Source of the DNA: the human T2T-CHM13v2.0 reference genome, Homo sapiens
Strand: one strand, 5' to 3'
DNA length: 64,000 nt
NCBI RefSeq assembly: GCF_009914755.1
Contig: NC_060931.1
The notes below the pieces were generated by a model, which did not search any database, was not told the DNA's origin, and saw only the letters and a list, made by a program, of their open reading frames with translations. Within the stretch, counting starts at the first letter, position 1, and each line of letters opens with the position of its first letter. Both the position numbers and the translations under genes were made by a program. This document shows, piece by piece, positions 15,520 to 18,845 of this stretch.

Positions 15520-16119
15520 GGCTGGGTGCAGTGGCTCATGCCTGTAATCCCAGGACTTTGGGAGGCTGAGGCGGGCAGAGTTCGAGACCAGCCTGGCCAA
15601 TATGGTGAAACTCCGTCTCTACTAAAAATACAAATATTTCCTGACCTCGTCATCCGCCCGCCTACGCCCCGTCTCTACTAAAAATACAAAAAAAATTAGC
15701 TGGGCGTGGTGGCGGGCACCTGTAGTCCCAGCTCCTCGGGAGGCTGAGGCAGGAGAATGGCGTGAACCCGGGAGGCGGAGCTTGCAGCGAGCCAACATGG
15801 CGCCACTGCACTCCAGCCTGGGCCACAGAGCGAGACTCCGTCTCAGACAAAAAAAAAAAAAAAAAAAAAAATATATATATATATATATATATGTATGTAT
15901 GTATGTATGTATAGACACACACACACACACACACACACACACACACAAAACTATTAGACGGGCGTAGTGGCGGGCACCTGTAATTCCAGTTACTCAGGAG
16001 GCTAAGGCAGGAGAATCACTTGAACCCTGGAGGCGAAGGTTGCAGTGAACCGAAATCGCACCACTGCACTCCAGTCTGCACGTCACAGCAAGACTCCGTC
16101 TCAAAAAAAAAAAAAAAAA
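15520..16119 (+). mobile_element. AluS with a 5'-inverted AluY and a compound microsatellite nested in its A-rich linker
   Basis: Left arm 15520-15634; antisense Alu piece ~15638-15663; sense AluY ~15666-15870; (TA)n(TATG)n(CA)n; right arm ~15953-16119; outer TSD aaaaagctaactaa. Confidence 0.9.
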
Positions 16120-17809
16120 GCTAACTAATGAGCTCCCTTCCAAACCAACAGAATCGCGTTTTCTTACAGTGAGTGAGATCTGGAATACCAAATAATTTAT
16201 ATGCACATGAAAGCTTGAAAGGCAATGCTTAGCTAAGTGGCTCTCACCCTAAACTTCCATTTAAGAGCGTGTGGCCAGTTTGAAGAAATGCCATCCCCTG
16301 TGCCCTCGCCACTGCTTCTACCTATTGTTCTGGGTGGAATCGTTCATGTTGTTCTAATTAATTGCCCCATGTGATTCCAAGGTGAGGCCAGGGTAAAGCA
16401 CACAGGCTCCCAAATCCTTTCAGGAGAGTTGAGTTAAGCTTTTTCCCTGAAGGGAGATCACAGAGGCTGCTCTGCTTGCGTTTGGTAGGGAGCAGGTCAG
16501 TTTAGCCCATATTCCCATTGCTGTAACAGAAACCACTGGAGTCTGTGGCAAGGGAGAGTACCACAGGGCAGAAAAATGAGTAAGTCACAGTTTCATCTTT
16601 ATTTAGCAGGTCATTGTTTCTGAATTCTACAACAAAGGCCAGAAGGAGAGAACATTTTCTGCACTTTAAAGTCCTTCTGCCTGTGGGTGTGGTGGTACCA
16701 GGTAAAAAGTTTGTCCTGATGCCTTCAAGGACACATTCTCAAGATGAAGGTGAGATTTGTTCAGTTAATCTCTCCTGAGAAGGAATCAGAGAAAAGAGAA
16801 AAAATGGGTGATTCTCAGATAAGTGTCCCAGGTCAAAAAATGTGTCCACTTTTTCTTCTAGGATGTCATGTACCTAGAATTGCAATCATTTCCATTTCTA
16901 CTTCTGATGTTCCTGCCTAACAAGATTATTTGAACTACTTTTTTCCTTTTCTTCTCATGACAGTGAAAGGACCTCTTTTAAATAATTCTCCCCTCTATAC
17001 CAGAGCCTTATCTTCATTCTCTCCATCCAGGCTTCTTACATATCACAAATAATTCTTACCTTGAATTTATACTCTGAAATATTGACAGTATTCCCTGTGT
17101 TGACAGATCAGTCTGGGCAGGTGGGGATATAAAACATTCTTTTGGGGGATGGTGCTGGGTCCTCAGATATCAGTGAGTGAGAAAAGTCCACTGTTTATGT
17201 TCCATCTGGATGCTCCATCAGCTCTATGAAGAACATAACTTTTAAATGAACACTTAAAAAGGATGGAATTAATTGCCTAGGATAATTTGGAAGATAGGAA
17301 AAGGGATTAATTTTTACAAATGTGCCTTCTAGGATGCTAAAGAGAGAGCATTTAAATACACTATTAGAAATTACAAAACATGGGAAACATATATGGCTTG
17401 AACTTTACATAAAACTGATGTTTTTAATGATTAGATTCAGATTATGGTGTATGTTTTTTGGCCAGTAATCTTGCAGAAGTCATGTTGAATCCTCCCGTAT
17501 GTATCAGCACCTGATACCCATTTGTCCCATTAATTTTATTCACTTGGTTAAGGTGCTCTCTAAAGGATTCCTCCACCATAAAGTTACTTTTTCTTTGAAC
17601 TCTGTCATTAGCAGTTATCTTGGAGAGACTTTCTGATTAATGTGCATAAACAATCACATTTAATCTAGAAGTGTCCCTTTCTTATTAGTTTCTCTTTGTT
17701 TATATCTTGCTTCAGAAAATGAAGCTTGTCAGCATTGTTTACTGGTCTTATACACTGGGATAAAACCCAGGTTCTGTCACTTACTAGATGTTTTACAAAA
17801 TATTTTTCT

Positions 17810-17955
17810 TAGCTAGAATCATTGGCAACATTGATGAGTTGTTAGCAATGCAGAAACTCAAGTCTCATCCCAGGTCTCTTGAATTAGAATATGCATTTTA
17901 ACAAAATCTCCAGTTTATTGATGTACACATTAACAAATGAGCAGTACCTTCTAAC
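17810..17955. mobile_element. MER5-type (hAT-Charlie) DNA transposon fragment
   Basis: aatgcagaaactcaagtctcatcccagg...gaattagaatatgcattttaacaaaatctccag resembles the MER5 core. Confidence 0.6.
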
Positions 17956-18298
17956 TTAATGTGACTTCTCCATATGGGAACTATATACATCTTACTCTGT
18001 ATAATGTAAATATAGCACTCAAAATTGTATATGCTTGTGTTTATGCCATGAATTGTATGCTGCATCATTCAGAAAACTATAGTACCTACACTGGTTTTGT
18101 GGATCTTATTTCATTCTCTTTCCTCAGAATGAGGGAATACATTAGAGAATCATTCTGTATTAAACAGTATCTTATTGGATAATTCAAGTCTCTCGTGTAA
18201 AACAGAGCCAACTCTCTTAACTCTCAAACACCTAGAGTCAAATTAGGAATTCTGCCCACGGCCACTTGCTAAATATGTGTGTGTGTCTGTGTTTTTAG

Positions 18299-18425
18299 AA
18301 ACTGCGAACATTGAAGGATGCGGCCATAGAATTATCTTAGAAGGAGTGGGAATGTCTGAATCCTGCTCAGTGGAATTTGTATAGGGATGTGATGTTAGAA
18401 AACTACAGAAACCTGGTTTCCCTAG
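18299..18425 (+). pseudogene. KRAB-A exon of a ZNF91-subfamily-like zinc-finger pseudogene
   Basis: 127-nt exon with AG/GT intact; [41 protein letters not shown]; in-frame TAG at 18338-18340. Confidence 0.93.
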
Positions 18426-18538
18426 GTGAGAATAATTTTTCCCCAGAATTCCTAATACACCCTAAGGTTTCTATTTTCTCCCTTAGTAGAACGGTTTTGG
18501 GAGTTTTGGGTCTGCTTAAATTATTTTTAGGTCAGTAA

Positions 18539-18845
18539 TTTTTTTTTTTTTTTTTTTTTTTTTTGAGACGGAGTCTCGCTGTGACGTGCAGACTGGAGTG
18601 CAGTGGCGCGATCTCGGCTCACTGCAAGCTCCGCCTCCCGGGTTCACGCCATCTTCTTGATTCAGCCTCCCGAGTAGCTGGGACTACAGGCGCCCGCCAC
18701 TACGCCTGGCTAATTTTTTGTATTTTTAGTAGAGACGGGGTTTCACCGTGTTAGCCAGGATCGTCTCGATCTTCTGACCTCGTGATCCGCCCGCGTAGCC
18801 CTCCCAAAGTGCTGGGATTACAGGCGTGAGCCATCGCGCCCGGCC
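18539..18845 (-). mobile_element. AluY in the KRAB A-B intron
   Basis: CpG-rich AluY; TSD taggtcagta at 18528 and 18846. Confidence 0.96.

What the first reader, a model, noticed from the sequence alone, without database searches (positions are those of the whole stretch)
16060..18610. Two inverted Alus of different subfamilies share a five-substitution motif: local gene conversion
Seen: the AluS right arm (16075-16086) and the antisense AluY (18592-18581) both read CCAG-TCTGCACGTCAC-AGC instead of consensus CCAG-CCTGGGCGACAG-AGC, i.e. five identical changes in 12 nt. Their upstream diagnostics still differ (gaggttgcag-type versus gagcttgcag-type). I did not see the motif in other Alus here. 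Both TSD pairs are correctly matched and KRAB-A stays collinear with KRAB-B, so there is no net inversion. Inference: short-tract conversion by fold-back pairing across ~2.5 kb. The motif creates TGACGTG (CRE/UPRE/HRE-like core) on both sides of the KRAB-A exon.
Basis: partly seen in the sequence, partly recalled or inferred. Interest (0 to 1): 0.7.

Follow-up and report, generated by a model that had tools for sequence, protein, structure and literature searches.

The report
Alu-to-Alu copying of five mutations
Two oppositely oriented Alu repeats 2.5 kb apart in a dead zinc-finger-type (KRAB) gene fragment share five mutations found together nowhere else in this human genome, likely because a short stretch was copied from the older repeat into the younger one; this is a very clear but ordinary case of a known process, with no sign of function.

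Summary
The 19-mer occurs at 16071-16089 (+) and 18578-18596 (-) and nowhere else in T2T-CHM13, so it is not a subfamily marker. An inverted segmental duplicate at chr7:65.59-65.65 Mb gives the direction without apes. It carries the same AluS with the three transversions already present, and an empty site where the AluY sits. The motif therefore built up stepwise in the AluS and was later transferred into the younger AluY. The tract is at least 12 nt; perfect identity spans 29 nt; the older AluS variant at 16049 was not copied. TSD pairs match and the interval is collinear with the duplicate, so there is no net inversion. Non-allelic conversion between Alus under 10 kb apart is a published, common process. 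Fold-back pairing is one possible route and cannot be told apart from break repair or an RNA-templated route. A regulatory role is unsupported: the KRAB-A exon is broken in both copies, no full CRE/UPRE octamer is present, and the duplicate lacks the site. One loose end remains: the AluY has two more substitution clusters with no donor found.

The parts
15505..15519 (+). 5' target-site duplication of the AluS
   Evidence: D11, 100% to 16114-16128
15520..16113 (+). AluS-type element (likely donor), split in its middle A-rich linker by a nested AluY and a microsatellite
   Evidence: right arm shares 6 minor variants with the duplicate's Alu
15636..15870 (+). nested 5'-truncated AluY with an inverted 5' piece (15636 to about 15665; twin-priming-like), absent from the duplicate; no motif
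   Evidence: (D7, I9)
16061..16089 (+). donor side of the 29-nt perfectly shared stretch; five-change core at 16075-16086
16114..16128 (+). 3' target-site duplication of the AluS
   Evidence: D11
18299..18425 (+). KRAB-A exon remnant with an in-frame stop; the duplicate has the same stop plus a 1-nt deletion
18528..18542 (-). 3' target-site duplication of the antisense AluY
   Evidence: D14
18543..18845 (-). full-length AluY (likely acceptor), absent from the duplicate, which has an empty site
18578..18606 (-). acceptor side of the 29-nt shared stretch; core at 18581-18592
18653..18661 (-). second substitution cluster in the AluY (5 changes in 9 nt), no donor found
18795..18799 (-). third cluster (3 transversions in 5 nt), no donor found
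18846..18860 (-). 5' target-site duplication of the AluY
   Evidence: D14
19246..19340 (+). KRAB-B-like exon remnant (no AG at its acceptor here; in-frame stop near its end), collinear with KRAB-A
   Evidence: by eye; no Pfam hit

Best explanation
The two Alus share a five-change motif unique in the genome, and it was likely copied at the DNA level, one way and without crossover, from the older AluS into the later-inserted inverted AluY 2.5 kb away (short-tract non-allelic gene conversion). Order of events: (1) The AluS gained three transversions before this region was duplicated (shown by the duplicate). (2) After duplication, the window's copy gained two transitions, one by decay of a newly formed CpG, and the AluY inserted (the empty site is shown; the relative timing is inferred). 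(3) A nick or break in the AluY was repaired on the nearby AluS, or a short heteroduplex between the inverted arms was mismatch-corrected, copying at least 12 nt and at most the stretch from 16050 to the tail (inferred). The result is most likely neutral.
For: Exact 19-mer: 2 matches in 3.1 Gb, both here. 20-mer at up to 2 mismatches: 44 matches, of which 2 are exact. Three-transversion pattern: 5 matches, made up of these 2, the duplicate, and 2 unrelated chr1 Alus that lack both transitions. The two-transversion control gives 145 matches, so the search does see Alus. Among 2211 pairs of 67 right arms from loci not chosen for the motif, only this pair shares 5 minor variants in 15 nt; 5 pairs share 3, and 2 of those involve the duplicate's copy of this AluS. 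The product of background frequencies is about 2e-7. The duplicate's AluS has the 3 transversions and its AluY site is empty with a single TSD copy. The AluY lacks the older AluS variants at columns 183, 207 and 228 and keeps its Y diagnostics, so only a patch moved. TSDs match and the interval is collinear with the duplicate. Conversion is reported to be elevated between Alus under 10 kb apart (PMC8230782 introduction; PMC6598467 passage).
Against: The unconverted AluY was not seen, because no ape or second human assembly was available. The right arms are only 84% identical, below the 89-100% optimum quoted in PMC8230782. The AluY has two other clusters with no donor, so clustered change in this element does not always trace to a local template. 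The sequence cannot separate DNA-templated from RNA-templated transfer.
Confidence: 0.86

Rival explanations
1. RNA-templated transfer. During or after insertion of the antisense AluY, reverse transcription started on, or jumped to, a local transcript containing the sense AluS, so the AluY's 3' end was copied from it.
For: The AluS is sense to the KRAB remnant, so a pre-mRNA would present it as a template for a minus-strand insertion. The tract could reach the tail if the single difference 3' of the motif (16090, a CpG transition) arose later. cDNA-mediated conversion is described for yeast Ty and Tf2 (PMC6598467 passage).
Against: It needs an in-register template jump and transcription of a pseudogene intron with no annotated transcript. 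The duplicate shows the CpG at 16089-16090 was intact at duplication, so extending the tract costs one extra later mutation.
Confidence: 0.07
2. Inversion toggling. The interval inverted and re-inverted with different crossover points, swapping the motif into the AluY, and allelic recombination then joined it to an AluS that still had the motif.
For: Tail-to-tail Alus 84-85% alike are substrates for inversion (I3).
Against: It needs three events rather than one. Present TSDs and collinearity show no inversion.
Confidence: 0.03
3. The AluY copy of the motif is an assembly or polishing artefact, from reads of the AluS placed on the AluY.
For: Only one assembly was seen. The elements are similar and close together.
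Against: The switch is confined to under 30 nt with each element's own bases on both sides. The AluS motif is independently supported by the duplicate.
Confidence: 0.02
4. Independent mutation, or a shared rare Alu subfamily.
For: Two unrelated chr1 Alus carry the three transversions, so partial convergence happens among many copies.
Against: All five changes occur together only here. The two elements otherwise carry different subfamily diagnostics. The background product is about 2e-7.
Confidence: 0.01

Closest known systems
Homogenisation of neighbouring Alus by non-allelic gene conversion (Aleshin and Zhi 2010; paper not held; seen only as cited in PMC8230782, PMC6598467, PMC3670932)
   Same: Shared non-diagnostic mutations between Alus less than 10 kb apart.
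   Different: That work is described as a genome-wide signal; here a single event has a named donor, acceptor, direction and tract bounds.
Partial Alu-Alu gene conversion (Doronina et al. 2021, PMC8230782; parts 1-2 of 4 and passages read)
   Same: Mosaic Alu with at least three neighbouring coherent changes; includes the direction old AluS into young AluY (12 cases there).
   Different: They scored subfamily-diagnostic changes in Alus with repeat-poor flanks, using primate orthologues. Here the markers are private mutations and the outgroup is an in-genome segmental duplicate.
Multinucleotide mutations templated by a paralogous repeat (PMC13102968, passages read)
   Same: A substitution cluster with an exact match in a paralogous repeat (four de novo clusters there).
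   Different: That paper reports de novo events in families; this is an old event read from one assembly.
Template switching between short inverted repeats (PMC8604942, search listing only)
   Same: Arms of an inverted repeat homogenised, giving clustered substitutions.
   Different: Described for short inverted repeats in yeast; here the arms are about 170 nt, 85% alike and 2.4 kb apart.

Membership tests
Alu-Alu non-allelic gene conversion | At least three neighbouring shared non-consensus changes beyond chance | tested here: met
   Five in 12 nt; 1 of 2211 pairs; 2 exact matches genome-wide
Alu-Alu non-allelic gene conversion | Identifiable donor that keeps the sequence (non-reciprocal), with direction | tested here: met
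   AluS keeps the motif; the duplicate has 3 of 5 changes in its AluS and no AluY
Alu-Alu non-allelic gene conversion | Bounded tract; acceptor keeps its own state outside it; no crossover | tested here: met
   Columns 183, 207, 228 not transferred; TSDs matched and interval collinear
Alu-Alu non-allelic gene conversion | Unconverted acceptor seen in an outgroup, and a second assembly confirming the state | not testable with these tools
   No ape or second human genome is held (no relatives)
Alu subfamily diagnostic motif | Motif in many dispersed copies that share other diagnostics | tested here: not met
   control
Fold-back / inverted-repeat template switch | Inverted homologous arms in cis | tested here: met
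   I3: 172 nt, 85% complementary, 2428 nt apart
Fold-back / inverted-repeat template switch | Evidence that transfer was intramolecular, through a hairpin or nascent-strand switch | not testable with these tools
   The end product is the same as for ectopic break repair
Functional CRE / UPRE / HRE element (motifs recalled) | Full CRE or UPRE octamer, and conservation in the duplicate | tested here: not met
   No TGACGTCA or TGACGTGG in the window; core absent in the duplicate. The 7-mer and the 5-nt ACGTG core are present; that core occurs 36 times in the window
Functional CRE / UPRE / HRE element (motifs recalled) | Factor binding or open chromatin, and a target gene | not testable with these tools
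   No ChIP data; hub annotation lists no functional element; KRAB-A broken in both copies

The most novel reading that the evidence does not exclude
This AluY is a repair hot spot. Of its 17 non-CpG changes, 13 lie in three tight clusters, while 23 of 25 CpGs survive. One episode, or repeated episodes, of break repair at the inverted Alu pair may have made both the templated patch and two error-prone, untemplated clusters. That would give a natural record of template switching coupled to multinucleotide mutagenesis at kilobase-spaced inverted Alus.
Probability: 0.12. Interest if true: 0.45.

Novelty: new member of a known kind. Interest (0 to 1): 0.2.

Why it matters
Mainly a clean teaching or benchmark case: donor, acceptor, direction and tract limits of an Alu-Alu conversion can be read from one genome, because a segmental duplicate keeps the earlier state. 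It shows transfer between arms only 84% alike, from an old AluS into a young AluY. It does not change what is known about the process, and nothing points to a function. It would matter more if ape and pangenome data showed the three clusters arising together.

Tried and rejected
Subfamily marker: rejected. Net inversion: rejected. AluY as donor: rejected for the three transversions, which predate it; a second, reverse exchange of the two transitions cannot be excluded. Donors for clusters 2 and 3: the genome-wide patterns match exactly only the AluY itself (1 exact of 62 hits at up to 2 mismatches; 1 exact of 5 at up to 1), and local exact matches reach only 11 and 6 nt. Sixth shared variant (AluY 18701): present in 4 of 56 background arms, so chance or a second small tract; undecided. 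The pair statistic was discarded because its background included loci fetched by similarity to the motifs; redid it on window Alus and loci L005-L033 only. One listed difference (column 144) came from my CpG-restoring rule and was dropped before the counts. Folding the motif region shows the first change perfects a short local stem in the AluS (z -2.6 for the 74-mer; -1.25 for the AluY side); this is too weak to use. No C2H2 finger or linker motif was found by strict regex in the window or in 70 kb of the duplicate. Two locus-directed paper searches listed nothing on this event; listings only, supplements not seen.

Full report
Observation. There is no other window match at up to 3 mismatches, and 0 of 100 shuffles gave two matches. 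Against the majority of other Alu right arms, both elements differ by the same five bases within 12 nt. The first element is an AluS-type copy (15520-16113) with a 15-nt TSD. The second is a full-length antisense AluY (18543-18845) with its own TSD (D11 and D14). They are tail-to-tail; the right arms are 85% complementary over 172 nt and 2428 nt apart (I3). The AluS is interrupted by a nested, 5'-inverted AluY that does not carry the motif.

Not a subfamily marker. In the whole T2T genome the exact 19-mer has 2 matches, both here. A 20-mer at up to 2 mismatches has 44 matches: 2 exact, 2 at one mismatch and 40 at two. A pattern fixing the three transversions and allowing the transition states has 5 matches: the two here, one at chr7:65,636,418, and two chr1 Alus that lack both transitions. 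The control pattern with only two transversions has 145 matches, so the search reaches into Alus. Among 67 right arms from the window and from loci fetched with non-Alu sequence, 1 of 2211 pairs shares five minor variants within 15 nt, and it is this pair. Five pairs share three, two of them involving the duplicate's copy of the same AluS. The product of background frequencies of the five bases is about 2e-7. An earlier version of this test had a background biased by motif-selected loci and was discarded.

An in-genome outgroup gives the direction. The interval between the Alus has one close paralogue, chr7:65,633,981-65,636,371 on the minus strand, at 94% identity; the next best are 85-89% partial matches on chr19 (40 of 274 candidates scored). 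Window bases 1 to about 54,000 align in pieces, inverted, to chr7:65.59-65.65 Mb. The interval differs at 111 of 2381 aligned bases, 4.7%. By recalled primate rates that is very roughly 15-25 million years. In the duplicate the AluS right arm is present and shares six minor variants with the window's AluS, including the three transversions but not the two transitions. Its 5' part appears fused to the upstream Alu by a deletion. The AluY is absent, with a single copy of its target site. So the three transversions predate the AluY, unless it was precisely excised, which PMC8230782 calls rare. The two transitions arose in this copy; one is the decay of a CpG created by the first transversion. All five then appear in the AluY. 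The simplest reading is one transfer from AluS to AluY.

Tract. The minimum is 12 nt (16075-16086). Perfect identity runs 29 nt (16061-16089 with 18606-18578). The AluS variant at 16049, which is shared with the duplicate and so older than the event, was not transferred; neither were two older variants further upstream. The 5' end therefore lies after 16049. The differences at 16054, 16060 and 16090 are specific to the window's AluS and could be younger than the transfer, so the tract may extend to the tail. A sixth shared variant about 110 nt upstream is seen in 4 of 56 background arms and is undecided. Matched TSDs and collinearity with the duplicate exclude a net inversion.

Mechanism. Shown: shared private motif, donor age, bounded patch, no crossover. 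Inferred: DNA-level non-reciprocal copying, by repair of a nick or break on the nearby homologue or by mismatch correction of a short heteroduplex between the inverted arms (0.86). Rivals are an RNA-templated jump onto a local AluS-containing transcript (0.07), inversion toggling plus allelic recombination (0.03), an assembly artefact (0.02) and coincidence (0.01). Against the best reading: the arms are only 84% identical, and no unconverted AluY could be seen.

Function. TGACGTG does flank the KRAB-A exon and occurs nowhere else in the window. However, the exon (18299-18425; Pfam KRAB on its 3' part) has an in-frame stop in both duplicates, the KRAB-B-like exon lacks its acceptor AG here, and no zinc-finger motif was found by strict regex. 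No full CRE or UPRE octamer (recalled motifs) is present, the duplicate lacks the core, and the hub annotation lists no gene or functional element at this place. I rate a regulatory role at about 0.03.

Loose end. The AluY keeps 23 of 25 CpGs, against 8-20 of 22-26 in 11 AluY-like copies, yet has 17 non-CpG changes (one artefactual column dropped). Of the 12 outside the converted patch, 8 fall in two clusters (18653-18661 and 18795-18799). A post hoc permutation gives P about 0.002 for five changes within 9 nt. Neither cluster has an exact second copy in the genome or a convincing local donor. They may be error-prone multinucleotide events, or conversions from donors since changed or absent from this assembly. 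A shared origin with the templated patch is the most novel reading (0.12).

What is known. Doronina et al. (PMC8230782; parts 1-2 of 4 and passages) report 98 Alu-Alu conversions, 69 partial and 12 in which an old element overwrote a young one, and cite work showing conversion among neighbours within about 10 kb. PMC6598467 (passages) says the same. PMC3670932 (passages) proposes ectopic annealing of inverted Alus that can resolve as conversion. PMC13102968 (passages) reports de novo clusters matching a paralogous repeat. Aleshin and Zhi 2010 was not held. Seven searches listed no report of this event; I saw listings only for most, and no supplements.

Verdict. A real and unusually clear instance of a known process, with direction resolved as AluS to AluY and no evidence of function. 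New member of a known kind; interest 0.2.

Noticed in passing
window 1 to about 54,000 vs G000:C7:65,590,000-65,652,000 (-): Most of the window is an inverted segmental duplicate (long collinear blocks mostly 84-93% identical) of a region on the other arm of chr7.
   Followed up: partly
window 15636-15870: 5'-truncated AluY with an inverted 5' piece (twin-priming-like) inserted in the middle A-rich linker of the AluS and followed by a compound microsatellite; absent from the duplicate.
   Followed up: partly
L033 (G000:C7:65,636,382-65,636,700): The duplicate has one chimeric Alu where the window has two (about 15040 and 15520), consistent with an Alu-Alu recombination deletion of about 480 nt with the crossover in the left arm.
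   Followed up: partly
window 8527-8816 and 9383-9688: Two AluY-like elements, one splitting the YWHAE pseudogene, fall in gaps of the alignment to the duplicate, so they likely inserted after the duplication.
   Followed up: no
window 18653-18661, 18795-18799: Two further substitution clusters in the antisense AluY with no donor found; cluster 2 loosely resembles the element's own left arm at 18768-18777, and cluster 3 loosely resembles the nested AluY's inversion junction (by eye, weak).
   Followed up: partly
window 31536-36000 vs duplicate near 65,618,880: About 4.4 kb that includes the IGF2BP3P2 pseudogene span has no aligned counterpart in the fetched duplicate, suggesting insertion after the duplication or loss in the duplicate.
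   Followed up: no
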